From Synechococcus sp. A15-24 (GTDB taxonomy: Bacteria; Cyanobacteriota; Cyanobacteriia; PCC-6307; Cyanobiaceae), in contig NZ_CP047960.1 in the NCBI RefSeq assembly GCF_014280195.1, forward strand, positions 570,001 to 602,000: DNA of 32,000 nt. Reading direction: 5' to 3'. Shown piece after piece: positions 2,411 through 30,675 of this stretch; position 1 is the first letter of the stretch; the number at the start of each line of letters is the position of its first letter. The notes under the pieces were generated by a model, which did no database searches, was not told the origin of the DNA, and saw only the letters and a list, made by a program, of their open reading frames with translations. A program made the translations under genes and the position numbers.

Positions 2411-2446
2411 GCGGAGCTACCTGAGGGACACTGCGGCCATCTGCTC

Positions 2447-4216
2447 TTGGCTATGGCGCCGATCGACTGGGCTCTGCTCGGGGGCTACCTGGTCCTGACC
2501 CTTGTGCTGGGGCTGTGGCTGGCCCGTCGCAACAGTGGTGAGGAGGACTATTTCGTCGCGGGCCGTCGTCTCAGCGGCTGGCTGGCTGGTGCGTCCATGG
2601 CTGCGACGACGTTTTCCATCGACACCCCCCTCTACGTCGCTGGCCTGATCGGCAGCCGCGGATTGGCGGGGAACTGGGAGTGGTGGAGCTTTGGCCTGGC
2701 TCACGTGGCCATGGCCGTGGTGTTTGCGCCGTTGTGGCGCCGCAGTGGCGTGCTCACTGATGCGGCGTTCACCGAACTTCGTTACGGCGGTCCGGCTGCG
2801 GCCTGGTTGCGGGGGATCAAGGCATTCCTGCTGGCCCTGCCCGTGAACTGCATCGGCATCGGTTACGCCTTTCTGGCCTTGCGCAAGGTTGTGGAAGCGC
2901 TGGGCATCGTCTCCGGAAGCCCGTCGGCCTTCGGTGTGCCCGACACGCTGTGGCTGCTGGCGGTGGTGGCTCTGATGGTGCTGGCTTACACCGTGGCCGG
3001 GGGGCTGTGGGCTGTGGTGGTGACCGACCTGGTTCAGTTGGTGCTGGCTTTGCTCGGAGCTCTCGCTGTCGCTGTCGCGGCGCTGCATGCTGCCGGCGGC
3101 ATGGGGGGACTCCTCGGGCAGCTCGGAGGCATGAATCGCCCGGAGTTGTTGTCTCTGGTCCCCTGGACCATCGAGGACGGGGGCGTGCATTGGTTGGAGG
3201 GGGCCGGCATTTCGGTGCCGATGTTCCTGGCCTACATCGCCGTTCAATGGTGGAGTTTCCGCCGCAGCGACGGCGGTGGTGAATTCATTCAACGCATGCT
3301 GGCCACCCGAGATGAGCAGCAGGCGCGGTTGGCGGGCTGGGTGTTCTTGGTGGTGAACTATCTGGTGCGCAGTTGGCTTTGGGTGGTGGTCGCCCTGGCG
3401 GCTCTGGTGCTGCTTCCCGATCAGGGGGACTGGGAGCTGAGCTACCCCGCCCTGGCGGTGCAACTGCTGCCTCCGGTGGCATTGGGGTTGGTGGTGGTGT
3501 CGCTGGTGGCGGCCTTCATGAGCACGGTGAGCACATCGGTGAACTGGGGCGCCAGTTACCTCACCCACGACCTCTACCAACGCTTCATCCGTCCCAATGC
3601 AGGATCTCGGGAACTGCTGCTGGTGGGGCAGCTCACCACGGTGTTGCTGCTTGGGCTTGGAGTGGTTACGGCATTGATCAGCGACAGCATTGGCACTGTG
3701 TTCCGTCTTGTGATCGCCATCGGCTCTGGGCCTGGCGTCGTTCTGGTTCTGCGTTGGTTCTGGTGGCGGGTGAATGCAGCGGCCGAGCTGGCGGCGATGA
3801 TCTGCGGTTTCATCGTCGGTTTGCTCACTTCGGTGCTGCCCCTCGTGAGAATTGAGGATTACGGCCTGCGGCTGGCGGTGATCACCGGTGTTTCAGCCGT
3901 GGTGTGGCTGAGTGCCATGTTGTTGAGTCCACCGGAATCAGAGGCGGTTCTGGAAACCTTCATCCGGCAGGTGCAGCCTCCCGGCCCCGGTTGGGCGCGA
4001 CTGCGGCAACGCTTCCAGGTGGAGCCTCAGGAGCGCCTATCGACGCTGCTGGCCCGGTTTGTTAGCTCCTGTGGGGTGTTGTTCGGCGGGTTGATCGGCA
4101 TCGGCGGGTTCCTGCTGCATCAGCAGTTCAGTGGTTGGGGCGGTCTTGTGGTGCTGGTGGGCTCATGGCTGCTTATGCGTCGTCTTCCACAGCAGAATGG
4201 CGCTCGAATGGTCTGA
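2447..4216 (+). CDS. Sodium:solute symporter (SSS) family transporter
   Basis: 589-aa polytopic membrane ORF with about 13 or more hydrophobic helices. The N-terminal pattern (EDYFVAGRRLSGW, then SIDTPLYVAG) is typical of SSS-family permeases. Substrate cannot be assigned. Confidence 0.8.
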   Translation: MAMAPIDWALLGGYLVLTLVLGLWLARRNSGEEDYFVAGRRLSGWLAGASMAATTFSIDTPLYVAGLIGSRGLAGNWEWWSFGLAHVAMAVVFAPLWRRSGVLTDAAFTELRYGGPAAAWLRGIKAFLLALPVNCIGIGYAFLALRKVVEALGIVSGSPSAFGVPDTLWLLAVVALMVLAYTVAGGLWAVVVTDLVQLVLALLGALAVAVAALHAAGGMGGLLGQLGGMNRPELLSLVPWTIEDGGVHWLEGAGISVPMFLAYIAVQWWSFRRSDGGGEFIQRMLATRDEQQARLAGWVFLVVNYLVRSWLWVVVALAALVLLPDQGDWELSYPALAVQLLPPVALGLVVVSLVAAFMSTVSTSVNWGASYLTHDLYQRFIRPNAGSRELLLVGQLTTVLLLGLGVVTALISDSIGTVFRLVIAIGSGPGVVLVLRWFWWRVNAAAELAAMICGFIVGLLTSVLPLVRIEDYGLRLAVITGVSAVVWLSAMLLSPPESEAVLETFIRQVQPPGPGWARLRQRFQVEPQERLSTLLARFVSSCGVLFGGLIGIGGFLLHQQFSGWGGLVVLVGSWLLMRRLPQQNGARMV

Positions 4217-4383: not shown

Positions 4384-5187
4384 TCACCAAAGATCTGCAT
4401 TCAACCCCTCGTTTTCATCATTGTTATCGGATGATGAAATACTTTCTTCCTCAACTTCGTTGTCAAGGGCATCATCTTCTGGGATGTCCTTGATGTTGGC
4501 AATGTACCAGCTTTGACACGCCTCAAGGCTTCCGGTGTGAGCGATCTTGCCCTTGTGAAGAACAACACCATCTTGGCAGTGCTGCTGCAAAATGTTGGAA
4601 TCAGTGTGCGCCATGATCAATGACTTTCCCGTAAGACGCTCTCGCAGTGCCTGTTGAAGCTTCAGCAAACGCTCTGATGTGGCATCTGCTTTCCAGGCAA
4701 AAATCTTGGGAATGATATAAACATCAAAATCGAAAGCCAGGGCAACAGCGAGATAAAACCTTGCCCGCATGAACTTGTTGTAAACATGCAGAGGTTTATC
4801 AAAAAAACCTTCCTCAAGATCAGCCAAGGTTTGAATGATCTCGAGATCTTTGCTCCGCTGGCCGCCATGGCCATAGACACCTTGGAGGAAGGCGGCATTC
4901 TGTCGGCCCGTCAACGAACTCAGCAACCCGCCTCGAACACCGAGAGGCCAGCTGACGTTGGTGTTGATCGTTACCTGGCCTTTCTGTACAGATGCAACGC
5001 CGGCTGCGCACTCCAGAAAGGCATGGGCTTCTCGCATGGATGAGGAGATCACCCCCACCCGCTGACCTTCCAGTAATTGCCAAGTGACGTCATTGAGCAA
5101 ACGTTTGGTTGTTTCTTTGCTGCCGCTGACGTCTCGCACCACGCTCTCCAGGCTGAGGAGTGGTCGGGTTGGAGAAGCGAGCATCAT
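4384..5187 (-). CDS. kpsT: KpsT-like polysaccharide-export ABC nucleotide-binding protein with all catalytic motifs degenerate (pseudo-ATPase)
   Basis: 267-aa ORF with KpsT/Wzt-type blocks VSWPLGVRGGLLSSLTGRQN, YNKFMRARFYLAVALAFDFDVYII and SLIMAHTD. Walker A, the Q-loop Gln, the signature SGG and the Walker B D-E are all replaced. It has an acidic C-terminal tail and lower GC than its neighbours. Confidence 0.7.
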   Translation of the reverse strand: MMLASPTRPLLSLESVVRDVSGSKETTKRLLNDVTWQLLEGQRVGVISSSMREAHAFLECAAGVASVQKGQVTINTNVSWPLGVRGGLLSSLTGRQNAAFLQGVYGHGGQRSKDLEIIQTLADLEEGFFDKPLHVYNKFMRARFYLAVALAFDFDVYIIPKIFAWKADATSERLLKLQQALRERLTGKSLIMAHTDSNILQQHCQDGVVLHKGKIAHTGSLEACQSWYIANIKDIPEDDALDNEVEEESISSSDNNDENEGLNADLW

Positions 5188-6260
5188 CCTTGGGAGAAAC
5201 CCTTCTGGCCGGTCTTGACGGTATCGGCGATCAACTGGTCACGTAAAGCTTTGAGTTGACTGCTCTCCCAAGACTGCTGATCCGATGAGATGTCGGGTGG
5301 CAGGTTTTCGGGTTGTGGAGGGAAGAAGTCATCCCACTGCATCGTTGGCCAGAAGCATTGGCAGAAGTCCCTATTCGTCTGCCCGTAGCGATGCCGAATA
5401 GTCGCTCTAAGCTCAGCGTCAAGGCCGTTAAAGGGCTCTTCGGGCCAACGTCGCTCTTTAGCGAGGACCTCGATCGCGTTTCTCAATGCTTTCTTGTGTT
5501 GTCGAAGACATAGTGGGTTCTGTTCAGCACAATAGTTATTGATTGCTTGAGCCAAGGCCACGCCAAGGCGCCCTGGTTGCTGGTTCTTTGAGCGAGCCGG
5601 TAGAGATTGTTCGGCGAGTTTCGCCGGCAGTGGAAGCTCCGCAAGCAGTTGTTCATAGGGGTCAGGCCGTTCGTGGATCGATCGACCATTGAGGTTTTGT
5701 GCGGAACCAAAAGGGATCATTACAGTCTCGATTGAGGGTTCGTCCTTGAGCCAGCTGAACAACGTCATCAAGTCACACTCACTGATGGTGTTCTCGTTCA
5801 TCACTTTCGTCACATACGACTTGAAGTCGACATAAACTTTCAAACGTTTGACCAGTTGGGTGTAACGGGAGTTGAGGTAGCTCTCCTGGTCACGGATAAA
5901 GCCAACGATCTTTAAGCGCCATCCCTGAGACTGCAATTTTTTGGCTAACCAAAGCCCTCTGGGGTGGAGGTTGTCTTTCCCTGGTTTTGTAAGGACCCAG
6001 GACAAAGCTTCATGGGAGACAAGCAGTTGACACTCCATGGCGTCTGCCCGATCCAGCCAACGACGCCATTGTTTCCACGATCCTTTCTTGGTCGCTTGGA
6101 GCAGGATCTTGTCCTGGCGTCTTCGAGCAGGCATCAGTAAACCATGGCGTCGCAGCAGTCCACGGTTTTTGCGCAGGCGCTTCTGGATGTAGGTCGAGGC
6201 GGTCTTGTGCATGCCCACATGCAGCACCACAGTTCGCTCGACGGTTGGCTGCGCGGACAT
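5184..6260 (-). CDS. Sulfotransferase-like P-loop protein (hypothetical, polysaccharide-modification type)
   Basis: Start assigned to the internal ATG at 6260 (MSAQPTVERTVVLHVGMHKTASTYIQ...). The GMHKTAST motif resembles the PAPS 5-prime-phosphosulfate binding loop of sulfotransferase-family proteins. Its stop overlaps the kpsT-like start (ATGA at 5184-5187). The track ORF extends to 6722, but that part runs antisense to the HEAT gene and is Arg/Pro/Ser-rich. Confidence 0.55.
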   Translation of the reverse strand: MSAQPTVERTVVLHVGMHKTASTYIQKRLRKNRGLLRRHGLLMPARRRQDKILLQATKKGSWKQWRRWLDRADAMECQLLVSHEALSWVLTKPGKDNLHPRGLWLAKKLQSQGWRLKIVGFIRDQESYLNSRYTQLVKRLKVYVDFKSYVTKVMNENTISECDLMTLFSWLKDEPSIETVMIPFGSAQNLNGRSIHERPDPYEQLLAELPLPAKLAEQSLPARSKNQQPGRLGVALAQAINNYCAEQNPLCLRQHKKALRNAIEVLAKERRWPEEPFNGLDAELRATIRHRYGQTNRDFCQCFWPTMQWDDFFPPQPENLPPDISSDQQSWESSQLKALRDQLIADTVKTGQKGFSQG

Positions 6261-10901: not shown

Positions 10902-12188
10902 TCAGATCTGGTTCAGAGCCGTGGCGATGGCCTTGTAGCACTGTCCCAGCTGATCGTCGCTGATGCACAGCGGTGGCAGCAGGTACACCACCTGTCCCAG
11001 GGGGCGCAGGAACACCCCATGCTCCAGGGTGATCCGTTTGATGGTTGGCCCGGCTGGATTGAGATAGCCGGCATCGCCGCTGACATTCAGGTCGAAGGCC
11101 GCCACCGTGCCGGTCAGCCGGCAGCGCGTCACCTTCGGATGGGCCTGCAGTTGTTCCAGATGGGGGCGATGCCGTGCTTCGAACCCTCGGAACTGCTCGG
11201 GGTCCTGCTGCAGCAGATCAAGGCTGGCGTTGGCCGCTGCGCATCCCAGCGGATTGGCGGTGAAACTGTGGCCGTGCCAGAGGGTCAGGCTGGGGTCCGC
11301 CCCAACAAAGGCTGAGAAGACCCGTTCACTGGCCATGGTCACTCCCATGGGCAGACAACCGCCGGTCAGGCCTTTTGAGAGGGCCATCAGATCCGGCTGA
11401 ATCCCGGCTCGGTGACAGGCAAACCAGTCGCCGCAACGGCCGAATCCGGTCAACACCTCATCGGCGATCAGCAGGGCGCCCGCCTGCCGCACCAACGTCT
11501 CCACCTGCTTGAGGAAGGTGCAACGCACCATCGCCATCCCGCCGGCACCCTGGAGCAACGGCTCCAGGATCACCGCTGCGGTCGGTTGCTGCAGCGTGGT
11601 CTCCAGCACGGCCAGGGCCGCCTGTTCCCTGGTGTCCACATCAGGGTCATCCCACCATGTGGCGGGCCATGGACAACGGGCAACGGGGAACAGCTTGTCG
11701 TCGAAGGGTTCGCTGAACAGGTTGCGTTCGCCCACGGCCATGGCACCGAAGGTGTCGCCGTGATAAGCGCCGTCGAAGGCCACGATCTGGTGCCGCGGTT
11801 CGCCACGGTTCACCCACCATTGACAGGCGATCTTCAGCGCCACCTCCACAGCAGTGGAACCGTTGTCGGAGAAAAACAGCCGATCAAGTCCCGTGAGCTT
11901 GCTGAGCCGCTCCCCAAGACGTTCCGCCGGCTCATGGGTGAAGTCAGCAAAAATCACCTGTTCGAGGCGGGCGGCCTGATCGGCAATGGCCTTGGCCATC
12001 ACCGGGTGACCATGGCCATGCAGCGTCACCCACCAGCTGCTGATGGCATCGATCAGGGGAATGCCCTGCTCCCGCAGCAACAGGGCTCCATCCCCGGCAA
12101 TCACCCGTTGCGGCAGCGGTGCCGATTCGATCTGAGTGAAAGGCGGCCAGAGGTTGGGATGTCGTGACTGATCAGCCGTTGTTCTCAT
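10902..12188 (-). CDS. bioA: Adenosylmethionine-8-amino-7-oxononanoate aminotransferase (BioA)
   Basis: Class-III PLP aminotransferase blocks HLWPPFTQ-like (NLWPPFTQ), ADEVLTGFGRCG and the PLP-lysine block ALSKGLTGG. The start is placed at internal ATG 12188 (MRTTADQSRHPNLWPPFTQ); the track ORF extends to 12365. Confidence 0.92.
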   Translation of the reverse strand: MRTTADQSRHPNLWPPFTQIESAPLPQRVIAGDGALLLREQGIPLIDAISSWWVTLHGHGHPVMAKAIADQAARLEQVIFADFTHEPAERLGERLSKLTGLDRLFFSDNGSTAVEVALKIACQWWVNRGEPRHQIVAFDGAYHGDTFGAMAVGERNLFSEPFDDKLFPVARCPWPATWWDDPDVDTREQAALAVLETTLQQPTAAVILEPLLQGAGGMAMVRCTFLKQVETLVRQAGALLIADEVLTGFGRCGDWFACHRAGIQPDLMALSKGLTGGCLPMGVTMASERVFSAFVGADPSLTLWHGHSFTANPLGCAAANASLDLLQQDPEQFRGFEARHRPHLEQLQAHPKVTRCRLTGTVAAFDLNVSGDAGYLNPAGPTIKRITLEHGVFLRPLGQVVYLLPPLCISDDQLGQCYKAIATALNQI

Positions 12189-12240
12189 GGCGGCCTGGGC
12201 GTCTTTGTCATATTGAATCTCAGAGCCGCAGCGCCACTCC

Positions 12241-12516
12241 ATGGCCATGACGCGAACGCGACGGCTGTCCAAGCGGTTTGTTCCTGCTGCTGGGGCAGGA
12301 CCGGCGGCAGTCGGCCTCGATGGCCAACGGAGTGAGGTGTTTGCAGAGGGGGGCTGGCCCTCCATTCGCGTGTTTCTGGAGATGCGCGGGTGGTCTCCCC
12401 TGCAGATCGATCAGATACACGAGCAGTTGCGGCAAGGCTGGCCGTTGTCCCAGGCCGTTCGTCAGGTGTCCATCCGGATGGGAGTGTGCCCGCTGCGTTC
12501 GAAATCCCTCGGCTGA
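12241..12516 (+). CDS. Hypothetical protein, 91 aa
   Basis: ORF with balanced amino-acid composition (GGWPSIRVFLEMRGWSPLQIDQIHEQLRQGWPLSQAVRQV). The overlapping minus-strand ORFs are Arg/Pro/Ser/Thr-rich shadow frames. No family recognised. Confidence 0.45.
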   Translation: MAMTRTRRLSKRFVPAAGAGPAAVGLDGQRSEVFAEGGWPSIRVFLEMRGWSPLQIDQIHEQLRQGWPLSQAVRQVSIRMGVCPLRSKSLG

Positions 12517-12672
12517 TCAGCGGCAGATCTGGCTGCTTTTCTGGGCCTCTGTGGCGATCGAACCGCAGTTGACCCAACGCACCAGCAGTTGTTCAACATC
12601 GGTGAACAACACCAGAATCCCTCCGCAGAGGATCACCAGCACCAAGCTGATCAGGGACTGTGGTGGCTTCAT
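12517..12672 (-). CDS. 51-aa single-helix membrane micro-protein, translationally coupled to bioD
   Basis: Hand translation gives MKPPQSLISLVLVILCGGILVLFTDVEQLLVRWVNCGSIATEAQKSSQICR. Its ATG (12672-12670) overlaps the bioD TGA (12671-12669) as ATGA, the same junction used between all upstream bio genes. It is below the track cutoff. Confidence 0.4.
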   Translation of the reverse strand: MKPPQSLISLVLVILCGGILVLFTDVEQLLVRWVNCGSIATEAQKSSQICR

Positions 12673-13328
12673 GGCTGCTGGATGCCGAGCAGATCCTGGA
12701 ACTTAGAACTCAATCCCTGCCGTTTCCATTCCCTGGCGAGGGACTCAGCCGTCAGGGGAGACAGTGTCGGCAGATGGGCCAGAACTGGCACACCACCGAA
12801 CTGTTCAAGGGTGCCGGGGTTGTCGGCATGGGCCGGGCCATTGAGGATCAACCCCAGCACCGTCAGCTGACGACGGTTGAGAGCCTCCAGGCTCAGCAGT
12901 GTGTGGTTCAGGGTGCCGAGTCCGCTGCGGGCCACCAGGACGATCGGTCGATTCCAGCGCTGCAGCTGATCGATCTGCAGCCATCGCCGCGTTAACGGCA
13001 CCATCAGTCCGCCTGCGGTTTCCACCACCAGGGGCCCCGTGCAATGGGGAACGACCAGGTCATCCGGGTTGAGGGGGATGCCGTCCAGCTCAGCGGCCCA
13101 ATGGGGTGACACCGGTTGTTGAAAGGCATAGGCCTCGGGCAGCATGCGACGGGGGGGAAGGTTGAGCAGGGACTGCACCCGTCCACGATCGCCGCCGTCC
13201 TCTAGGCCGCTTTGAACCGGCTTCCAGTAGTGAGCATTCAGCCCCTGCACCAGCCAGGCACTGACGACGGTTTTGCCGACATCGGTGTCGGTGCCGCAGA
13301 CCACGATCTGGGGAGATGGATGATTCAT
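12669..13328 (-). CDS. bioD: Dethiobiotin synthetase (BioD)
   Basis: Start at ATG 13328 (MNHPSPQIVVCGTDTDVGKTVVSAWL). This is the BioD P-loop GTDTxVGKT. The start overlaps the bioC stop (ATGA). Confidence 0.9.
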   Translation of the reverse strand: MNHPSPQIVVCGTDTDVGKTVVSAWLVQGLNAHYWKPVQSGLEDGGDRGRVQSLLNLPPRRMLPEAYAFQQPVSPHWAAELDGIPLNPDDLVVPHCTGPLVVETAGGLMVPLTRRWLQIDQLQRWNRPIVLVARSGLGTLNHTLLSLEALNRRQLTVLGLILNGPAHADNPGTLEQFGGVPVLAHLPTLSPLTAESLAREWKRQGLSSKFQDLLGIQQP

Positions 13329-14071
13329 CGCTGCAGCATCAGGCTCAGTACGTGCCAGGTGAGGGTCGGGGTCTCCGAATCCGGCCAGGCTCGCGCGAGA
13401 CGGCGCCACTGACTGGGCCCCAAGCCAGCATGGGCGCTGGTGCTGGCCCCGATCGTGCGCATCGGACGCAGCAGCTCAAGAGGCCGTTGCGCTCGGCGGC
13501 TGAAGCAATGCAGTCGTTGATGTCGCACGGCAGAGCGAGGAACAACGTTCAGGAGATCATCGACTTCAGGGAAGCGCAGGGCTGTGCAGGGCAGTTGGGC
13601 CCGTTCGGCGGCCTGATGCCATTGCTGAAAACTGCCGGCAACGGGAACGGCAACAACCAGCCAGCCCCCTTCGGCCAGACGGTCATACCAGTGCTGCAGC
13701 CAGGTTGCTGGGCCGGTCAGCCAGTGCAGAACGAAGCTGGAACTCAGCAGCACAGGCGCTGAGCTCCAGTTGGGCAGCGGCTGATTCAGATCCAGGCAGC
13801 AGGTTCTGGTGGTTGGGTGATGACGGCGCAGCATGGCGTCGCTGCCGTCGACTCGCAGCACCGTCTGACCCGGATGCAGATGTTCCAGATCATCAGCCAG
13901 CAGACCCGTTCCACTGCCCAGATCCACCCAGAGCCCCCGGGGAATGCTCTGACGGCGGCACCGTTCAGCCAGTTGTCTGGCCATGGCGCGTTGGAGGTTG
14001 GCGGCACCGTCGTAACGATCAGCGGATCGACCGAAGCGCTCCACAACCCGTTGGCTCCAAGTGTTCGTCAT
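13325..14071 (-). CDS. bioC: Malonyl-ACP O-methyltransferase (BioC)
   Basis: 248-aa class-I SAM methyltransferase (VDLGSGTGLLADDL) lying between the esterase gene and bioD in the bio operon. Confidence 0.8.
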   Translation of the reverse strand: MTNTWSQRVVERFGRSADRYDGAANLQRAMARQLAERCRRQSIPRGLWVDLGSGTGLLADDLEHLHPGQTVLRVDGSDAMLRRHHPTTRTCCLDLNQPLPNWSSAPVLLSSSFVLHWLTGPATWLQHWYDRLAEGGWLVVAVPVAGSFQQWHQAAERAQLPCTALRFPEVDDLLNVVPRSAVRHQRLHCFSRRAQRPLELLRPMRTIGASTSAHAGLGPSQWRRLARAWPDSETPTLTWHVLSLMLQR

Positions 14072-14757
14072 GGATTGCCTGCCCAGCGCACCACTTGATC
14101 CAGCACCGCCGGTGTCACCACGGCATGACCCTCATCAGGGCGGAGCAGGTGGTCTGTGCGCGACGGGGGCAGGGCCTGCAGCAGTTGCGCGCGGCTGTCC
14201 GGGCAGACAATCGCGTCCTGCTCCCCCTGCACCACCAGCACCGATGCTCCCTCAGGCCAGCTCTCCGGAAGGCTCTGGCACTGCTGAAGCAGGACCAAAT
14301 CATCCTGCAGCCGCTGGCGGCCAGAAGGATGCATGCCGCGTAGCAGCGGATTGTTCGGCAGGGCCGAGAGCGGCAGAGGCGAGGCGCAGCGGCTCAGGAA
14401 TTTCCGCAGCATCCCTAGTTCGTTCGACGTCCCCAGGCAGGAGGCCATGCCTTTGAGGGCCACTGCAAGCGCCCGGCCGGCCGCTCCTGCTGGAACAAAG
14501 GCTGCAAAGCCCGCCAGGCTCACCACGGCATCTGCTTGTTGAAGCACCGGCTCCGGCAGCAGATGGAGTCCCAGGGAGTGGGCGATCACGAGGCGCTGTC
14601 CCGGCAGCTCTGCCCAGCTGGGCTGGTGGGGCTCACGCTGTCCATAGCCCCGTTCAACGGCATCCCAGTGCCAGCCCAGGGCCTCAAACCGCTGCTGCCA
14701 GGCCCGCCAGACCGTTGCATCCCCAGCCCAACCATGGGCGGCGATCACCTGATTCAT
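14068..14757 (-). CDS. bioK: Alpha/beta-hydrolase, probable pimeloyl-ACP methyl ester esterase (BioK type)
   Basis: 229-aa ORF with an N-terminal HGW oxyanion-type motif and the nucleophile elbow AHSLG. It sits between bioF and bioC, which matches the BioK class described for Synechococcus and Prochlorococcus. ATGA overlaps on both sides. Confidence 0.65.
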   Translation of the reverse strand: MNQVIAAHGWAGDATVWRAWQQRFEALGWHWDAVERGYGQREPHQPSWAELPGQRLVIAHSLGLHLLPEPVLQQADAVVSLAGFAAFVPAGAAGRALAVALKGMASCLGTSNELGMLRKFLSRCASPLPLSALPNNPLLRGMHPSGRQRLQDDLVLLQQCQSLPESWPEGASVLVVQGEQDAIVCPDSRAQLLQALPPSRTDHLLRPDEGHAVVTPAVLDQVVRWAGNP

Positions 14758-15902
14758 GGGCAGGGGAGGGCCTTGAGCAGCTGTCCCACCGTCTCATCCG
14801 GCAGGTCCCGGCGCAGCACCAGCCGCAGCCGAGCGGTCCCCTCCGGAACGGTGGGCGGCCGGATCGCCACACTCAGCAATCCGTGTTCTTCCAGAACCGC
14901 CTGAGCGGCGAGGGCCGCGGCATCGCTGCCCAGCAGTAAGGGCAGCACGGGCCCCACCCCCGCAGGTCGTATCCAGCCTTGGCCCTCCAGGGCATCCCGC
15001 CAGTGGCTCGCCCGCTGCTGCAGCTGTTGGCTCCAGTGCGGATAGGATCGGATCAGGTCCAGTGCCGTCTGTGCACCGGCCACCAGGGGTGGGGCCAAGG
15101 CAGTGGTGTAACGAAAGGCGCCACTGGTCTGCAGCAAGGCGTCACCGAGATCGGCATCACTGGCCAGGAAGGCGCCGCCGCTGCCGAAGGCCTTGCCGAA
15201 GGTGCCACTGATCAGTCGCACTGGTTCGATGCCAAAGCAGAGGCCGCGACCCTCCGGTCCCAGCACCCCGAGGGCATGGGCCTCATCCATCAGCAGATCG
15301 GCCCCAAAGCGTTGGCACAGTGCAGCCAGAGCTGCCACATCCGGGCTGGTGCCCTCCATGCTGAACAGGCTTTCGCTGAGCACCACCACGGATCCCGGCT
15401 GCCCTGCCATGGCCTGCAACCGCCGCTCGAGATCCGTCAAATCATTGTGCTGGAAGCGCTGCAGACGGGCACCGCTGGCCCGCACGCCCACCAGCAGCGA
15501 GTGGTGAATCAATCGATCGGCCAGAACTGTGGTGTGCCGGTCAGCCAGGACGCAGACGGCAGCGAGGTTCGCCTGGAAGCCACTGGGAAACAGCAAGACG
15601 CAGCTCCGTCCAAGCCAGTCGGCCAGGTCTGCCTCGAAACGCGCGTGACACGGCCGGCTGCCGGTGACCAGCCGTGACGCACCAGCCCCAACGCCGTCGC
15701 GATGGAGGGCTTCGGTGGCGGCGTCGATCACCGCCGGATGACGGCTGAGACCGAGATAATCATTGCTGGCCAGATCCAGCAGGGGGTGTTGCTCGGTCTC
15801 GGCCCGCTGCAGGGTCCAGGGGAGAGCAGCGCTGCTCCACGTGTGCAGCGTGCGGCGCCGTGCTGGATCCTGGGATGCCATGGCTCCAGTCTGGGCGGTC
15901 AC
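14754..15902 (-). CDS. bioF: 8-amino-7-oxononanoate synthase (BioF)
   Basis: PLP alpha-oxoamine synthase blocks SNDYLGLS, DEAHALG and the lysine block TFGKAFGSGGA. The start is GTG 15902 or ATG 15881. Confidence 0.9.
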   Translation of the reverse strand: MTAQTGAMASQDPARRRTLHTWSSAALPWTLQRAETEQHPLLDLASNDYLGLSRHPAVIDAATEALHRDGVGAGASRLVTGSRPCHARFEADLADWLGRSCVLLFPSGFQANLAAVCVLADRHTTVLADRLIHHSLLVGVRASGARLQRFQHNDLTDLERRLQAMAGQPGSVVVLSESLFSMEGTSPDVAALAALCQRFGADLLMDEAHALGVLGPEGRGLCFGIEPVRLISGTFGKAFGSGGAFLASDADLGDALLQTSGAFRYTTALAPPLVAGAQTALDLIRSYPHWSQQLQQRASHWRDALEGQGWIRPAGVGPVLPLLLGSDAAALAAQAVLEEHGLLSVAIRPPTVPEGTARLRLVLRRDLPDETVGQLLKALPCP

Positions 15903-21074: not shown

Positions 21075-21638
21075 ATGCCCTTCACCTGCCTCGCTGAGGC
21101 CAGTCATTGCTGCACGGTTGTGCTGCCCGGTGGCGAGAAGGCTGTGCTGCGGAGGTTTTTCCGGCGCCCGAAGCGATCAATGGCCGCCCTGCTCACCCGA
21201 CAGCGGATGGACTGCAAGGGCGATGGTCGCTTCCTCTACGCATCGCGGCCGTTTCAGCTCCTGCGATTTGAAATCAGGCCAGAGGTGCTGTTTGCCGCGC
21301 AGTGGTCGGATCAAGCCAAGGGGCTGGAGATTGCCTTTGAGGACTGCCGGATTCATGGCCTTGGCGCCATGCAGAACGCCATCCGCTTCGAGTGCACGGC
21401 GTTGCTTGTCCCCAAGCAGGAGGGTGTGGAGGCTCAGGCTCGAGCGGTGGTTCTTTTGTCGTCGGACAGTCCGTTGACTGCGCTGCCGACTGGCCTGCGC
21501 CAACGTTTGGCTACGCAGGCGTTGCAGCTGGTGTTTGCGCGGCTGGAGCGACGCTGCCAGGGCGGGCTGAAACGGGCCTTGCTGGATTGGATTGCGGAGG
21601 ATGCAATGGGGCGTGCTGATCTCAAGCGTGAGAGTTAA
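21075..21638 (+). CDS. Conserved cyanobacterial hypothetical protein (DUF1997-like)
   Basis: 187-aa ORF with core-like GC content. The family name is recalled from sequence style (GRFLYASRPFQLLRFEIRPEVLFAAQW) and was not verified. Confidence 0.55.
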   Translation: MPFTCLAEASHCCTVVLPGGEKAVLRRFFRRPKRSMAALLTRQRMDCKGDGRFLYASRPFQLLRFEIRPEVLFAAQWSDQAKGLEIAFEDCRIHGLGAMQNAIRFECTALLVPKQEGVEAQARAVVLLSSDSPLTALPTGLRQRLATQALQLVFARLERRCQGGLKRALLDWIAEDAMGRADLKRES

Positions 21639-21661: not shown

Positions 21662-22483
21662 ATGAGCAAAATGCGAGCCGGATTTGTCGATCAGATCAAG
21701 TCAAGACTTGATCGCCTTTGGTTGCAAATCAGAATCGTTCTCGCGCTTTCTGAGACGGAGTTCGTCCTTAGGGCTGAAAAGGGATCCTTCGGTGTTTGGG
21801 GTGTCTTGTTTGAACCCTTGGCGTTGATGATGACCTTGTTAGCACTCAGGATTTTGATTCGGTTGAAGTCCACTGATTTGCTGAGTCCAGTGATCTGGCT
21901 TGCTTGCGGGATCGCACTTCTATATATGTTCAGAAAAATAGGAATCAAGGCATTAACAGGTGTTTCGAAGCGTCAGAAATTCTTTTTTTACCGTCGAATT
22001 CGTCCCCTGGACACGTTGTTAGCGTCGGCCTTGATTGAAGCCAGAATTCATGGTTCTATTCTGGTTTTGGTCTTCATTAGTGTTTCGTTTTGGAGTTGGC
22101 AGTTCAAGCTGGATGATCCAGCACTTGTTCTTATTGATTTCATTCTCACGATTGCTCTTGGCTTGGGGGTTGGCATCAGTGCTTTGGTGATCGGTCACCG
22201 CATCCCGATTGTTAAAACATTGACGAAATTCGGGATTAATCGATTGTTGCTTTGGACCTCTGGAATTTTTTATGCTACCTACACACTTCCTGGGCCGATA
22301 CGTCCACTAGTGACGTGGAACCCACTGCTTCATTCGGTTGAGTTGCTGCGACATGGAATTAATGTGGCCTATCCAATACCTGGAATCAGTCTGCAGTATC
22401 TGTTTGCGTGTAGTTCACTGAGCTGCGGGTTTGGACTACTGTTCTATTTCCTCAACGAGGCTCTCCTGCTCGCCGATGACTGA
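21662..22483 (+). CDS. kpsM: Capsule/polysaccharide-export ABC-2 permease (KpsM-like)
   Basis: 273-aa six-helix ORF with KpsM-type blocks RPLDTLLASALIEARIH and WNPLLHSVELLRHGI. Confidence 0.82.
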   Translation: MSKMRAGFVDQIKSRLDRLWLQIRIVLALSETEFVLRAEKGSFGVWGVLFEPLALMMTLLALRILIRLKSTDLLSPVIWLACGIALLYMFRKIGIKALTGVSKRQKFFFYRRIRPLDTLLASALIEARIHGSILVLVFISVSFWSWQFKLDDPALVLIDFILTIALGLGVGISALVIGHRIPIVKTLTKFGINRLLLWTSGIFYATYTLPGPIRPLVTWNPLLHSVELLRHGINVAYPIPGISLQYLFACSSLSCGFGLLFYFLNEALLLADD

Positions 22484-23699
22484 ACAGCCGCGTGTCAAAC
22501 GGACGGCCGGAATTTTTCCGAAACTCGGAGAAGGAGCTTCCTGGTTCGGTAACTCCTCAGATGATCCCTCCAGTTCAGACACGTCACAGCTCCGCTCTGG
22601 GCTACAGGGATCGTTGAAAGGTCTGATGAATTCGGGAACCTTGGCTGCTGCTTTTGTCGTCCTCTCGGCGATGTATTGCTTTGGTGTGGGCCGTGATCGC
22701 TATCAAGCGACGTCCGAATTTGTCATCAAGCAGCCGCTGCCCCCGGCTTCAGCCTCCACCATGGTTCTTGGCTCGATGCAGAGCTCCAGCGTGCTCTCGT
22801 CTCTGGAGGACGGTCGTTATTTGCAGGTTTACCTGAAATCCAATGCTGTGAAGCAGGCGGTTTTCCCTGATCCATCTGCGTTTAAGAGGACCTATGCACC
22901 TCAGGCTCCAGATCAATGGAGTGGCTTACGTCGTGATGCCAATGACCAGGAGCAGCTTGCTTTCTTCCGCCAGCAGCTCGATGTGATTCCCCAGGAACTC
23001 TCAGGGACCATCGTTCTATCCACAAGTGCGTTCACCGCAGACGATGCCTATCGCCTCAATTCCGATCTTCTGAAACAGTCGCAGCGCTTCGTTAATGAGG
23101 TGAATCAGTCGATCAGTGCGGATCAACAGAAGTTTGCTGAGGAGCAGGTGGCCTTCGCGAAGACCCGTCTCACCACGGCCACCAATGCGCTTGAAGCTTT
23201 TCAGGATCTTTACGGACAACTGGATCCTTTGGGAGAACAGACGGCTACCACTGGCTTCATTACTGGCTTGGAATCTCGGCTGGTTGATCTGAAGGTTGAG
23301 GAAGCCAGTCTTCGACGCCAGTTCCGTGATCCCAATGCTCCAGAGGTTGCTTTTGTCGCAGACCAAGTACGTGAGCTCGAGCGACAGATTCAGGAAGAGC
23401 GCCAAAAGGCCGTTGGAGCCGGGGGACGTGATCTGAACAAACTTGCTACGCAAGCCAGTCGCCTCCAAGGAGATGTGGATTTTGCACGGGAATCCTTGAG
23501 TTCAGCCATGCGTGCGGCTGACAACAGCAGGATGGAAAGCCAGCGTCAGCTGAAATTCATCGTGATGCTGAGCAAGCCGCAGATGCCCACCGGCCCTGAA
23601 ACGTCATGGCGTTGGAAGGCCTTTCTGTCATGCCTGGGTGTTTTGATTGTGGTCTGGGGCGTTGGAGGATTCATGTTGACGGCATTACGGCGTTATTAA
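22476..23699 (+). CDS. kpsE: Capsule polysaccharide export inner-membrane adaptor (KpsE-like, PCP-3 type)
   Basis: ATG 22476 overlaps the kpsM stop by 8 nt. It has an N-terminal helix followed by RYQATSEFVIKQ, a long coiled central region, and a C-terminal LSKPQMPTGP block plus a final helix, as in KpsE. Confidence 0.75.
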   Translation: MTEQPRVKRTAGIFPKLGEGASWFGNSSDDPSSSDTSQLRSGLQGSLKGLMNSGTLAAAFVVLSAMYCFGVGRDRYQATSEFVIKQPLPPASASTMVLGSMQSSSVLSSLEDGRYLQVYLKSNAVKQAVFPDPSAFKRTYAPQAPDQWSGLRRDANDQEQLAFFRQQLDVIPQELSGTIVLSTSAFTADDAYRLNSDLLKQSQRFVNEVNQSISADQQKFAEEQVAFAKTRLTTATNALEAFQDLYGQLDPLGEQTATTGFITGLESRLVDLKVEEASLRRQFRDPNAPEVAFVADQVRELERQIQEERQKAVGAGGRDLNKLATQASRLQGDVDFARESLSSAMRAADNSRMESQRQLKFIVMLSKPQMPTGPETSWRWKAFLSCLGVLIVVWGVGGFMLTALRRY

Positions 23700-26807: not shown

Positions 26808-27712
26808 TGTTTTTTCTTGCTTGCCAGTTTGAGAAGTCGTCGTACTACTGCAGGGAATAGCCCCTCTTTGTCAGAAGTTATGACTTCTAATTGTCTTTTT
26901 TCTTCGCTCATGTTCGTTCCGGAATCTTCAGTTACAACCTCATCATGATCACCTCTTACATTATGATCTTCTATCTCTGGCTTATTAGATATCGGTTGAA
27001 CCGATAAGGATTCTTTTAACTCCTTATTCTCTTCTACAAGCAGCGCATATTTAGCTCTTTGTTTTCTTAGAGACTTTTGTAGTCGTTCGTTTTCCCGCGC
27101 AAGGTACTCATAGTTATTTTGGATCTGTGCTAATTGATTTAAATTATTTTTCAATTCTTCAAAACTTGCTTCGCGGTCTAGGTTGACCTCCCACCAGTCC
27201 ATGAGTGCGAGATCAATCAATGAGCCTTGGCTTAACCTTTGTAGATAGTTGCTGTCAGCTTCCAGACCAAACAAGCATGATTTCAGTTCTAGATCAAGGT
27301 AAATATCGATAATTCTTGGTTCTTTTCTCGCAATCTCTAGGCTTAGTAAGCTGGAAAGGGGCTTTGGGCTAGGGAAGTTAATACTTTTGTCTAGCTGTGG
27401 ATTCTCACCATTACAAAGTCTTATGATCGATGTACTGTCAAGCGAATTCAGGCGCCAGCTTGACGAAATATGTTTGTATTTTGCAGATAACAAGGATAAC
27501 TCTTCGTAATATGCGCGAATTTCATTGCATGTTGTTGCGGTGCTTTCTTCAAGTCGTTTTTGTTCAAGCACTTGATTGGGCGCCGAATAAATTAATAGCA
27601 CATTTTGAGGTTCATTGTCAGAATTGACTGATGTAAGTGGCTTGAGTCCTGCTTTGGCTAGTTTGTCTTTTAGAGATGAAAGAATATTTGTTGTCGAATA
27701 CCAGTACTGCAT
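26804..27712 (-). CDS. Hypothetical protein with a C-terminal coiled coil, ATGA-coupled to the 979-aa glycosyltransferase
   Basis: ATG 27712 (MQYWYSTTNILSSLKDK...). It has a heptad-like stretch FEELKNNLNQLAQIQNNYEYLARENERLQKSLRKQRAKYALLVEENKELKESL. Its stop overlaps the glycosyltransferase start at 26804-26807. No family recognised. Confidence 0.6.
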   Translation of the reverse strand: MQYWYSTTNILSSLKDKLAKAGLKPLTSVNSDNEPQNVLLIYSAPNQVLEQKRLEESTATTCNEIRAYYEELSLLSAKYKHISSSWRLNSLDSTSIIRLCNGENPQLDKSINFPSPKPLSSLLSLEIARKEPRIIDIYLDLELKSCLFGLEADSNYLQRLSQGSLIDLALMDWWEVNLDREASFEELKNNLNQLAQIQNNYEYLARENERLQKSLRKQRAKYALLVEENKELKESLSVQPISNKPEIEDHNVRGDHDEVVTEDSGTNMSEEKRQLEVITSDKEGLFPAVVRRLLKLASKKKQ

Positions 27713-27738
27713 TTGATTCCTGATCCTTACACGCAGTC

Positions 27739-27744
27739 TATAAT
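27739..27744 (+). promoter_or_regulatory. Consensus -10 hexamer TATAAT in the 54-nt divergent control region
   Basis: A perfect TATAAT lies 22 nt upstream of ATG 27767. A TTGATT -35-like hexamer at 27713-27718 has a 20-nt spacer, which is longer than ideal. Confidence 0.3.
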
Positions 27745-27766
27745 GCAGAACGCTCCTGAAGCTCAC

Positions 27767-30647: not shown

Positions 30648-30675
30648 CAAACTCTTCTGTAAATAACTTTGCAGC

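What the first reader, a model, noticed from the sequence alone, without database searches (positions are those of the whole stretch)
4384..5187. Intact KpsT-like ABC subunit with every ATPase motif destroyed (pseudo-ATPase)
The 267-aa ORF keeps the KpsT/Wzt scaffold blocks VSWPLGVRGGLLSSLTGRQN, YNKFMRARFYLAVALAFDFDVYII and SLIMAHTD.

The catalytic positions are all replaced:
- The Walker A position reads ISSSMREAH, with no Gly-rich loop and no Lys.
- The Q-loop Gln is Leu.
- The signature SGG is NKF.
- Walker B hhhhDE is VYIIPK.

The frame is uninterrupted and is ATGA-coupled to the upstream gene. It ends in an acidic Ser/Asp/Glu tail. That pattern fits a maintained non-catalytic NBD, such as a regulatory or heterodimer partner, better than a decaying pseudogene. 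Motif comparison used the KpsT family pattern as I recall it.
Basis: partly seen in the sequence, partly recalled or inferred. Interest (0 to 1): 0.72.

Follow-up and report, generated by a model that had tools for sequence, protein, structure and literature searches.

The report
Capsule-exporter ATPase subunit without ATPase motifs
A marine Synechococcus keeps, under clear purifying selection, a KpsT capsule-export "ATPase" subunit that has lost every ATP-binding and ATP-hydrolysis motif, and it appears to be the only KpsT of a complete capsule export system, so how that exporter is powered is an open question.

Summary
ORF 4384-5187 (minus strand, 267 aa) is a true KpsT homolog. Its best solved relative is S. 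thermodepolymerans KpsT, by sequence and by predicted fold. Walker A, Q-loop Gln, signature, Walker B Asp-Glu, D-loop and switch His are all replaced.

It is not a pseudogene:
- About 35 protein clusters of 47-96% identity keep frame and length.
- dN/dS is 0.08-0.18, and 0.01-0.05 over the former signature/Walker B block.

The window is Synechococcus sp. A15-24 (clade III). The protein is already deposited as "polysaccharide efflux transporter ATPase component" (Cyanorak kpsT).

New here: related picocyanobacterial lineages carry equally degenerate KpsT genes directly upstream of kpsM-kpsE, sometimes overlapping kpsM. Published Cyanorak tables list a single kpsT. In the 16 Synechococcus genomes readable in the stored table it has the same presence/absence pattern as kpsM/E/D/C/S. 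So this looks like the cognate KpsM partner rather than a spare paralog.

In this strain it sits 17 kb from kpsM-kpsE. It is translationally coupled to an uncharacterised sulfotransferase-like P-loop protein.

Best reading: a non-catalytic docking or adaptor subunit of the capsule exporter. The energy source is unresolved. I found no report of the motif loss. Verdict: new variant of a known kind.

The parts
4384..5187 (-). Degenerate KpsT ortholog (KpsT'), 267 aa. NBD fold covers residues ~10-235; residues 236-267 form a disordered acidic tail.
   Evidence: ORF. PDB phmmer hit to KpsT 8tsi at E 4e-20. AF2 model pLDDT 82. Foldseek top hit is StKpsT 8tsl_A, E 3.6e-18, TM 0.85. The sequence is identical to QNJ28365.1 of Synechococcus sp. 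A15-24.
5020..5046 (-). Former Walker A (P-loop), residues 48-56: SSSMREAHA
   Evidence: Aligns with GRNGAGKST of canonical KpsT. The AF2 helix begins at residue 51, three residues earlier than the canonical Lys position (A54), so no open P-loop is predicted. dN/dS over residues 41-65 is 0.04-0.17.
4921..4923 (-). Former Q-loop glutamine, now L89
   Evidence: GGLQGSLTG in canonical sequences against GGLLSSLTG here.
4771..4779 (-). Former ABC signature, residues 137-139 (NKF), in place of S-S-G
   Evidence: The block 135-165 has dN/dS 0.01-0.05.
4705..4722 (-). Former Walker B, residues 156-161 (VYIIPK). P160-K161 replace Asp-Glu.
   Evidence: K161 aligns with StKpsT E151, and the E151Q mutation abolishes secretion (PMC11041684).
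4387..4482 (-). Acidic Ser/Asp/Glu-rich C-terminal tail, residues 236-267, ending in a conserved [DENA]-L-W
   Evidence: pLDDT below 50. L266 and W267 are at least 90% conserved in A2. dN/dS is 0.06-0.16.
5184..6260 (-). Upstream gene, 358 aa, ATGA-coupled to KpsT'. Uncharacterised sulfotransferase-like P-loop protein.
   Evidence: Start chosen from orthologs. 88 homolog clusters, all unnamed and without Pfam. AF2 pLDDT 91. Weak fold matches to P-loop kinases and sulfotransferases. Invariant G-x-H-K-T-A-S/T-T and R123-x7-S131 motifs.
21075..21638 (+). DUF1997 gene that precedes kpsM; a member of the published Cyanorak 'Kps cluster'
   Evidence: Pfam PF09366. Cyanorak CK_00002307. In L044 the degenerate kpsT lies between this gene and kpsM.
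21662..22483 (+). KpsM permease, the presumed membrane partner
   Evidence: NF050053 E 2e-29 and PF01061. dN/dS 0.05-0.10.
22476..23699 (+). KpsE (PCP-3) co-polymerase. Probable start at 22476, overlapping the kpsM stop.
   Evidence: TIGR01010 E 2e-50. Start and overlap, and by analogy with L014 and L017.

Best explanation
The ORF is the picocyanobacterial ortholog of KpsT, the cytoplasmic nucleotide-binding subunit of the KpsM-KpsT-KpsE-KpsD capsule exporter. It has lost all residues needed to bind and hydrolyse ATP but is kept as a folded, selected protein.

Shown:
- It has the KpsT fold and the KpsT-specific sequence blocks.
- Every catalytic motif is gone.
- It is under purifying selection.
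- Equally degenerate orthologs sit in the kpsT slot of the kpsM-kpsE operon in sister lineages.
- The published gene tables list one kpsT. It has the same presence/absence pattern as the other kps genes in the 16 Synechococcus genomes readable here.

Inferred:
- It still docks on KpsM. The block best conserved with canonical KpsT is S79-F100, the Q-loop region and the start of the helical subdomain. In ABC transporters generally, that region grips the coupling element of the membrane subunit.
- It serves as a non-catalytic structural or adaptor subunit.
- In this strain it is made in fixed ratio with a sulfotransferase-like P-loop protein from an ATGA-overlapping gene. It probably holds that enzyme at the exporter, so that modification of the polymer and its export are linked.
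- The conserved acidic tail ending in L-W is a likely docking peptide for a partner that has not been identified.

The energy for translocation must then come from elsewhere. The two options I consider most plausible are below; neither is tested.
- The membrane potential acting on a strongly anionic (sulfated, nonulosonic-acid-containing) polymer.
- An unlinked ATPase.
For: Homology and fold.

Motif loss.

ATP hydrolysis is required in a canonical system: StKpsT E151Q abolishes secretion (PMC11041684), and E151 aligns with K161 here.

Selection:
- dN/dS is 0.08-0.18 for this gene, against 0.03-0.13 for the flanking core genes.
- The former signature/Walker B block has dN/dS 0.01-0.05, and the tail 0.06-0.16.

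Operon evidence:
- L044/L045/L046: DUF1997 - degenerate kpsT - kpsM - kpsE. The kpsT end overlaps the kpsM start. KpsM is 71-74% identical to the window's.
- L020: up-homolog - degenerate kpsT - kpsM - kpsE.
- L018 (Prochlorococcaceae MAG): sulfotransferase - degenerate kpsT - kpsM - kpsE.

No canonical NBD is found in the window or in any picocyanobacterial locus fetched.

Cyanorak tables:
- A single kpsT (CK_00043447) is listed.
- It has the same presence/absence pattern as kpsM, kpsE, kpsD2, kpsC and kpsS in the 16 Synechococcus genomes visible in the stored table. The table is cut before the clade III columns (PMC7522525 Table S4; PMC10119275 Dataset 6).
- The deposited name of the window protein matches that product.

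Composition: GC3 is 0.55 for KpsT' and 0.61 for the upstream gene, close to kpsM (0.50) and kpsE (0.56) and unlike the core genes (0.72-0.77).

The coupling to the upstream gene recurs. The 4-bp overlap is seen in the window and in L020, and the pair is adjacent in more than 25 loci.
Against: - No direct evidence that KpsT' binds KpsM. No complex prediction or experiment was possible.
- I could not read the whole A15-24 genome, so an unlinked canonical NBD that serves KpsM is not excluded.
- That CK_00043447 is this protein rests on the identical product name. I did not see the cluster's sequences. The stored Cyanorak table is also cut before the clade III columns, so A15-24 itself was not checked in it.
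- A canonical KpsMT needs ATP hydrolysis, so an exporter with two dead NBDs has no precedent that I know of.
- In this strain the gene is 17 kb from kpsM-kpsE and paired with another gene. That would also fit a protein that has left the transporter.
- The sulfotransferase assignment of the partner rests on motifs and weak fold matches only: Foldseek E >= 3e-3, hhalign E 0.39.
Confidence: 0.6

Rival explanations
1. KpsT' is one half of a heterodimeric NBD pair. A canonical ATPase encoded elsewhere in the genome (for example a Wzt-type or orphan NBD) occupies the other KpsM and supplies the energy, while KpsT' acts as a regulatory partner.
For: ABC exporters with one degenerate ATP site are common (established knowledge: TM287/288, TAP1/2, CFTR, Pdr5). 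I could not scan the whole genome. A few partly degenerate KpsT-like proteins exist in the wider library, such as P0394 and P0387, which keep Walker A but lack Walker B Glu.
Against: KpsT' lacks its own signature motif as well as Walker A and B. Both composite sites of a heterodimer would therefore be incomplete, unlike known asymmetric pairs. No second NBD lies next to kpsM-kpsE in the window, L014, L017, L018, L020 or L044-46. The Cyanorak Kps tables list a single kpsT.
Confidence: 0.15
2. KpsT' has left the transporter. It is now a soluble partner (scaffold, chaperone or regulator) of the sulfotransferase-like protein encoded upstream, and KpsM-KpsE in this strain either work with something else or not at all.
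For: In the window and in more than 25 metagenomic loci the gene sits between the HEAT-repeat and SSF core genes, coupled to the upstream gene and away from kpsM. The acidic tail could mimic a polyanionic substrate (idea only).
Against: In three other lineages the degenerate gene is fused into the kpsM-kpsE operon, in L044-46 without the upstream gene. The block most conserved with canonical KpsT is the presumed membrane-subunit interface. In the readable part of the Cyanorak table its presence tracks kpsM and kpsE. KpsM and KpsE remain under strong constraint (dN/dS 0.05-0.12).
Confidence: 0.17
3. KpsT' still binds or hydrolyses a nucleotide through non-canonical residues, such as the conserved S-M-x-E-A-H-A-F-L segment.
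For: The replaced Walker A segment is itself highly conserved within the core family, which shows that it does something.
Against: There is no Gly-rich loop, no Lys and no Ser/Thr for Mg2+. An acidic residue sits in the loop, and Pro-Lys sits at the catalytic Asp-Glu. The predicted helix runs through the P-loop position. The segment is not conserved across the wider degenerate clade.
Confidence: 0.05
4. It is a decaying pseudogene or an annotation artefact.
For: All catalytic motifs are lost, and GC content is lower than in the flanks.
Against: Frames are intact and lengths conserved in all 13 DNA orthologs examined. dN/dS is 0.08-0.18. The former motif regions are strongly constrained. Hundreds of cluster members come from many ocean metagenomes.
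Confidence: 0.01

Closest known systems
KpsT of group 2 capsule ABC exporters (E. coli KpsT; S. thermodepolymerans KpsT, PDB 8tsh/8tsi/8tsl)
   Same: Best sequence and fold match. Shares the KpsT-specific blocks SWP(L/V)G..GG, SLTGR(Q/E)N, F(D)xP and M(R)xR..LAFDFDVY. Short single-domain size. Encoded with kpsM and kpsE, directly upstream of kpsM in sister lineages.
   Different: Lacks the A-loop, Walker A, Q-loop Gln, signature, Walker B Asp-Glu, D-loop and switch His. Carries a ~30-residue acidic tail ending in L-W. In this strain it is unlinked from kpsM and coupled to another gene. In canonical KpsT a single Walker B change (E151Q) already abolishes secretion.
Wzt / TagH / TarH / RfbE NBDs of type V polysaccharide ABC exporters
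   Same: Next-best sequence and fold matches, with the same overall NBD architecture.
   Different: Those proteins are catalytically intact. Many carry a substrate-recognising C-terminal domain. KpsT-type proteins lack the gate helix of Wzt and TarH (PMC11041684).
ABC exporters with one degenerate nucleotide-binding site (TM287/288, BmrCD, TAP1/2, CFTR, Pdr5; from established knowledge)
   Same: They tolerate non-consensus residues in ATPase motifs and use a non-hydrolytic NBD surface for regulation.
   Different: In those systems the degeneracy is split between the two NBDs, so one consensus site survives and the degenerate site still binds ATP. Here one polypeptide has lost all its motifs, and no intact partner is evident.
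Cyanorak 'Kps cluster' of marine Synechococcus (Dore et al. 2020, 2023)
   Same: This gene appears to be the kpsT (CK_00043447) of that cluster. The identification rests on the identical deposited product name. kpsM, kpsE and DUF1997 in the window are members too.
   Different: The papers treat kpsT as an ATPase component and the capsule as 'energy-consuming'. Neither mentions the loss of the ATPase motifs (literature searches).

Membership tests
KpsT / ABC transporter NBD (PF00005 ABC_tran) | NBD fold: RecA-like core plus helical subdomain | tested here: met
   AF2 pLDDT 82. Foldseek top hit is StKpsT 8tsl_A, E 3.6e-18, TM 0.85. More than 1000 ABC NBD chains match at E <= 1e-3.
KpsT / ABC transporter NBD (PF00005 ABC_tran) | Significant sequence homology to KpsT-type NBDs | tested here: met
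   phmmer against 8tsi gives E 4e-20. tblastn with canonical KpsT sequences gives E 1e-24 to 3e-31.
KpsT / ABC transporter NBD (PF00005 ABC_tran) | Reaches curated family thresholds (Pfam gathering score, NCBIfam equivalog cut-off) | tested here: not met
   No Pfam hit at E <= 10. Best NCBIfam score is 46 bits against a cut-off of 400.
KpsT / ABC transporter NBD (PF00005 ABC_tran) | Walker A GxxGxGK[ST] | tested here: not met
   SSSMREAH occupies the aligned position.
KpsT / ABC transporter NBD (PF00005 ABC_tran) | Q-loop glutamine | tested here: not met
   L89 at the aligned position; the residue varies across the family.
KpsT / ABC transporter NBD (PF00005 ABC_tran) | ABC signature (LSGGQ; YSSGM in KpsT) | tested here: not met
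   YNKFM.
KpsT / ABC transporter NBD (PF00005 ABC_tran) | Walker B hhhhDE with the catalytic Glu | tested here: not met
   VYIIPK. K161 aligns with StKpsT E151.
KpsT / ABC transporter NBD (PF00005 ABC_tran) | Switch (H-loop) histidine | tested here: not met
   T195 is at the aligned position. The adjacent residue 194 is H or N within the family.
KpsT / ABC transporter NBD (PF00005 ABC_tran) | Encoded with, and co-occurring with, kpsM and kpsE | tested here: met
   Directly upstream of kpsM-kpsE in L018, L020 and L044-46. In the window kpsM is 17 kb away. Same presence/absence pattern in the 16 Synechococcus genomes readable in the Cyanorak table.
KpsT / ABC transporter NBD (PF00005 ABC_tran) | ATP binding and hydrolysis; physical complex with KpsM | not testable with these tools
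   Needs purified protein or a complex prediction.
Asymmetric heterodimeric ABC NBD (one degenerate site) | The degenerate NBD keeps an intact signature motif, or Walker A/B, to complete one consensus site with its partner | tested here: not met
   Signature, Walker A and Walker B are all lost in the same polypeptide.
Asymmetric heterodimeric ABC NBD (one degenerate site) | A canonical partner NBD encoded in the same locus or genome | tested here: inconclusive
   None in the 32-kb window or in the Kps loci fetched. One kpsT in the Cyanorak tables. The whole genome was not readable.
Pseudogene | Frame disruptions or neutral evolution (dN/dS near 1) | tested here: not met
   No stops or frameshifts in 13 orthologs. 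dN/dS 0.08-0.18.
PAPS-dependent sulfotransferase (for the coupled upstream gene 5184-6260) | 5'-PSB loop (G-x-x-K-[ST]-[AG]-[ST]-T) and 3'-PB motif (R-x7-S) | tested here: met
   G16-M-H-K19-T-A-S-T23 and R123-x7-S131 are invariant or nearly invariant in 47 sequences. The same pattern appears in the Pfam-confirmed Sulfotransfer_1 proteins of L018 and L020 (IIIGAAKSATTT, VRHPLDRxVS). The motif definitions come from my own knowledge.
PAPS-dependent sulfotransferase (for the coupled upstream gene 5184-6260) | Significant sequence or fold match to known sulfotransferases | tested here: inconclusive
   No Pfam, NCBIfam or PDB profile hit. hhalign is in register but E 0.39. The best Foldseek hits mix zeta-toxin and adenylate kinases with sulfotransferases at E 3e-3 to 0.1.

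The most novel reading that the evidence does not exclude
Marine Synechococcus and its picocyanobacterial relatives may run an 'ABC-transporter-dependent' capsule pathway with no ATPase at all. In that reading a KpsM2-KpsT'2 complex works as a gated polyanion channel. Export of a sulfated, acidic polymer would be driven by the membrane potential or by polymer synthesis. The dead NBDs would serve only as a clamp and as a platform for a sulfotransferase-like enzyme. This would be the first ABC-type exporter known to have given up ATP, in one of the most abundant phototrophs of phosphorus-poor oceans.
Probability: 0.3. Interest if true: 0.9.

Novelty: new variant of a known kind. Interest (0 to 1): 0.74.

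Why it matters
KpsMT-type exporters are the textbook case of ATP-driven capsule secretion, and a single Walker B mutation kills the canonical system. Here the only evident KpsT of a complete kps system (kpsM, E, D, C, S) has lost every ATPase motif. It is nevertheless conserved across clades of globally abundant marine Synechococcus.

Possible outcomes:
- If it still sits on KpsM, it gives a natural experiment on what an ABC nucleotide-binding domain does apart from hydrolysing ATP. It also raises the testable question of what powers polysaccharide export.
- If an unlinked ATPase is involved, that would be an unusual case of an exporter borrowing its motor.

There are two practical consequences:
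- Automatic and curated annotations call these proteins 'ATPase component' or 'ATP-binding protein'. That name is probably wrong.
- Ecological arguments that the Synechococcus capsule is 'too energy-consuming' in some niches should not assume ATP-driven export.

Tried and rejected
- Pfam on the ORF gave nothing.
- The 263-aa ORF after kpsE in L014 looked like a possible relocated KpsT'. BLASTP shows it is unrelated.
- The genome-contig scan returned only 7 loci because the derived patterns were very specific. It gave taxonomy (marine Synechococcus single-cell and metagenome-assembled genomes) but no kpsM context.
- Looking up the organisms of the nearest canonical KpsT representatives gave almost no names. 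I could not show whether any canonical KpsT is cyanobacterial.
- I considered an intramolecular salt bridge (E53 in the old P-loop with K161 in the old Walker B) filling the nucleotide pocket. Acidic and basic residues co-occur in several subfamilies but not consistently. For example, SSLSARAFL occurs with P-K, and the D-P types have no acid. No model coordinates were available, so I dropped the idea as a claim.
- The promoter/terminator scan and Rfam gave nothing relevant.
- Literature searches for a degenerate KpsT or a pseudo-ATPase ABC subunit found no description of this case.
Full report
**What is there.** The finding's coordinates hold a 267-aa ORF on the minus strand (4384-5187). Its start overlaps the stop of the upstream gene in the sequence ATGA. 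By sequence it is a KpsT-type ABC nucleotide-binding domain (NBD):
- phmmer against all PDB chains gives the KpsT of the S. thermodepolymerans KpsMT-KpsE complex (8tsi/8tsh) at E 4e-20. Wzt, RfbE, TarH and TagH follow.
- NCBIfam gives only far sub-threshold Wzt/VexC/TagH matches.
- Pfam ABC_tran gives no match at all.
- An AlphaFold2 model built on 35 family members has pLDDT 82, with a disordered tail at 241-267. Its best structural match is StKpsT, with Foldseek E 3.6e-18 and TM-score 0.85 normalised to the target.

**The motif loss is real and complete.** The evidence comes from the HMMER alignment to 8tsi and MAFFT alignments with canonical KpsT sequences:

| Motif | Canonical KpsT | This protein |
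|---|---|---|
| Walker A | G-R-N-G-A-G-K-S | S48-S-S-M-R-E-A54-H55 |
| Q-loop | Gln | L89 |
| Signature | Y-S-S-G-M | Y136-N-K-F-M140 |
| Walker B | Asp-Glu | P160-K161 |
| D-loop | G-D | K166-A167 |
| A-loop | aromatic residue | Val |
| Switch (H-loop) | His | T195 |

- The model's helix starts at residue 51, three residues before the position of the canonical Lys, so no open phosphate-binding loop is predicted.
- K161 aligns with StKpsT E151. The E151Q mutant abolishes capsule secretion (PMC11041684).
- What is shared with canonical KpsT is the scaffold: G70, S79-W-P-x-G83, G86-G87, L92, R95, N97, F129, P132, Y136, M140, R143, F154-D155 and C204.

**It is maintained, not decaying.**
- A search of 5.8 billion proteins found about 35 clusters of 47-96% identity. 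All are 263-282 aa and none has a Pfam ABC_tran hit. Canonical KpsT sequences with PF00005 follow at 27-35% identity.
- Thirteen DNA orthologs all have intact frames.
- Pairwise Nei-Gojobori dN/dS is 0.08-0.18, and 0.31 for the closest pair, which has few changes. The flanking core genes give 0.03-0.08 (HEAT-repeat gene) and 0.05-0.13 (SSF symporter). The upstream gene gives 0.16-0.26.

Constraint varies along the protein:

| Region (residues) | dN/dS |
|---|---|
| 135-165, former signature to Walker B | 0.01-0.05 |
| 66-134 | 0.03-0.17 |
| Former Walker A region | 0.04-0.17 |
| Acidic tail | 0.06-0.16 |
| First 40 residues | 0.23-0.48 |

The replacement residues form family motifs of their own: S-M-x-E-A-H-A-F-L-x-C-A-A-G, Y-N-K-x-M-R-A-R-F, F-D-F-D-V-Y-I-I-P-K/Q, and a C-terminal [DENA]-L-W.

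**Whose gene it is.**
[quoted passage not shown] A15-24, a clade III strain.
- RS9915 has a 282-aa homolog. JGI pipelines name family members 'capsular polysaccharide transport system ATP-binding protein'.
- The loci found in genome collections are marine Synechococcus single-cell and metagenome-assembled genomes.

**Context in the window.**
- The gene and its upstream partner sit between two core genes, a HEAT-repeat protein and an SSF symporter. This synteny recurs in every locus of the core family.
- The flanks are 78-98% identical across these loci, while the two-gene cassette is 49-92% identical.
- The cassette's third-position GC (0.55 and 0.61) differs from the core genes (0.72-0.77) and resembles kpsM (0.50) and kpsE (0.56).
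- KpsM (21662-22483) and KpsE (probable start 22476) lie 17 kb away behind a DUF1997 gene. A low-GC glycosyltransferase island follows them.
- tblastn with five canonical KpsT sequences finds no other NBD in the 32 kb.

**The key comparative result.** In other picocyanobacterial lineages the degenerate gene sits in the kpsT slot of the operon:
- L044, L045 and L046 (KpsM 71-74% identical to the window's): FumC - DUF1997 - degenerate kpsT - kpsM - kpsE - RgpF/GT2 glycosyltransferase. The kpsT stop overlaps the kpsM start, and the protein ends in Q-L-W. This is the same syntenic site as the window's DUF1997-kpsM-kpsE.
- L020 (KpsM 60%): a homolog of the upstream gene overlaps a degenerate kpsT by 4 bp, followed by kpsM and kpsE.
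- L018 (a Prochlorococcaceae MAG, KpsM 46%): a Pfam-confirmed sulfotransferase, then a degenerate kpsT, then kpsM and kpsE.

All of these lack Walker A, the signature and Walker B. No canonical NBD occurs in any of these loci, nor in the kpsM-kpsE loci L014 and L017.

An exhaustive HMMER search of 1.84 billion representatives supports this. About 20 of the best 150 representatives lack all motifs, and those that carry an organism name (three clusters) are Synechococcus or Cyanobacteriota MAGs. The rest are canonical, with a few partial cases.

**What the literature already has.**
- Dore et al. 2020 describe a 'Kps cluster' of 12 genes shared by clades III and WPC1.
- Their Table S4 lists kpsT (CK_00043447), kpsE, kpsM, kpsD2, kpsC, kpsS and others. 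All are single-copy and have one identical presence/absence pattern in the 16 Synechococcus genomes visible in the stored table, which is cut before the clade III columns.
- Dore et al. 2023 group these genes into two gene clusters (Syn-eCAG_008 and 009), together with neuA/neuB and a carbohydrate sulfotransferase. They call the capsule possibly 'too energy-consuming' for low-iron niches.
- In many strains kpsT is in the same genomic group as kpsM.
- Neither paper, nor any paper found in four further searches, mentions that this kpsT has no ATPase motifs.
- The system and the gene name are therefore known. The pseudo-ATPase nature, and what it implies, appear not to be.

**The partner gene.** The upstream ORF is best read as 358 aa (5184-6260), by comparison with gene calls in orthologous contigs.
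- It belongs to a family of 88 clusters, all 'hypothetical', with no Pfam, NCBIfam or PDB sequence match.
- Its model is confident (pLDDT 91). Foldseek finds only weak matches within the P-loop kinase/sulfotransferase fold class: zeta toxin, adenylate kinase, retinol dehydratase and SULT enzymes, at E 3e-3 to 0.1.
- Two invariant motifs, G16-x-H-K-T-A-S/T-T23 and R123-x7-S131 (with S82-x-E84 as well), match the 5'-phosphosulfate and 3'-phosphate binding motifs of sulfotransferases as I know them. They also match the motifs in the Pfam-confirmed sulfotransferases of L018 and L020.
- hhalign puts them in register but without significance.
- I therefore call it sulfotransferase-like. This is probable, not proven. 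Paralogs occur in tandem elsewhere (L014).

**How it most likely works.**
- Shown: a KpsT ortholog that cannot use the canonical ATP chemistry, kept by selection and genetically tied to kpsM-kpsE.
- Inferred: it still docks on KpsM. The region best conserved with canonical KpsT (S79-F100) is the Q-loop and the start of the helical subdomain, which in ABC transporters generally contacts the membrane subunit. Operon coupling to kpsM also persists in sister lineages.
- Inferred role: a non-catalytic clamp or adaptor, which in this strain is made together with the sulfotransferase-like protein and may hold it at the exporter. The conserved acidic tail ending in L-W looks like a docking peptide.
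- The energy source is unknown. An inside-negative membrane potential favours export of a polyanion, and CFTR shows that an ABC architecture can serve as a passive anion pathway (established knowledge). Alternatively an unlinked ATPase may be used. Neither is tested.

**Rivals.**
- A heterodimer with a canonical NBD is weakened by the loss of the signature motif in the same chain and by the absence of any second NBD in the loci and tables. It is not excluded, because I could not read the whole genome.
- A protein that has left the transporter to serve the sulfotransferase-like partner fits the arrangement in this strain, but not the operon arrangement elsewhere.
- Non-canonical nucleotide binding is unlikely.
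- A pseudogene is excluded.

**Verdict.** Novelty is a new variant of a known kind. Interest is 0.74.

Noticed in passing
window 5184-6260 (-): The gene translationally coupled upstream of KpsT' belongs to an uncharacterised family. It has 88 clusters, no Pfam or NCBIfam match, and a confident AF2 model. Sulfotransferase-like 5'-PSB and 3'-PB motifs are invariant. Its dN/dS is 0.16-0.26.
   Followed up: partly
L014 3012-4040 and 4117-5142; L018 5143-6153 and 7068-8123; L020 5381-6409: Paralogs of that sulfotransferase-like family occur in tandem or scattered in other Synechococcus Kps regions. In L014 they lie between an SBF transporter and the DSHCT helicase, so the family has expanded in these genomes.
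   Followed up: no
window 4384-6260 versus 21662-23699: The KpsT'/upstream pair and kpsM/kpsE share atypical third-position GC (0.50-0.61), against 0.72-0.77 in the core genes. This suggests a common flexible-genome origin even though they are 17 kb apart.
   Followed up: partly
window 23868-32000: Low-GC island (GC 0.40-0.45, GC3 0.36-0.45). It holds a 979-aa GT2+RgpF glycosyltransferase, another GT2 (30676-31995), and three ORFs with no family match (26804-27766, 27713-29359, 29316-30647). The 548-aa ORF gave only low-complexity spurious hits.
   Followed up: no
window 22476-22483: kpsE probably starts at ATG 22476 and overlaps the kpsM stop (ATGACTGA), not at the TTG at 22431 listed by the ORF finder. 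The same 8-bp overlap is called in L014 and L017.
   Followed up: partly
window 4387-4482 (-), residues 236-267: The disordered acidic tail ends in a nearly invariant [DENA]-L-W carboxy terminus across the core family, and in Q-L-W in the kpsM-adjacent L044 type. It is missing in the L020 type. Its binding partner is unknown.
   Followed up: partly
proteins P0394, P0387, P0405, P0467: A few KpsT-like representatives outside the picocyanobacterial clade are only partly degenerate. Walker A is kept or has K changed to R, while the Walker B Glu or the signature is lost. One is from a Pseudomonadota MAG. They may be intermediates or independent losses.
   Followed up: no
window 10902-15902 (-): A biotin operon (Aminotran_1_2/BioF-like, hydrolase, methyltransferase/BioC-like, AAA_26/BioD-like, BioA) lies between the two Kps-related sites. 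In this high-GC region many long antisense ORFs (for example 2417-3580) are compositional artefacts.
   Followed up: no
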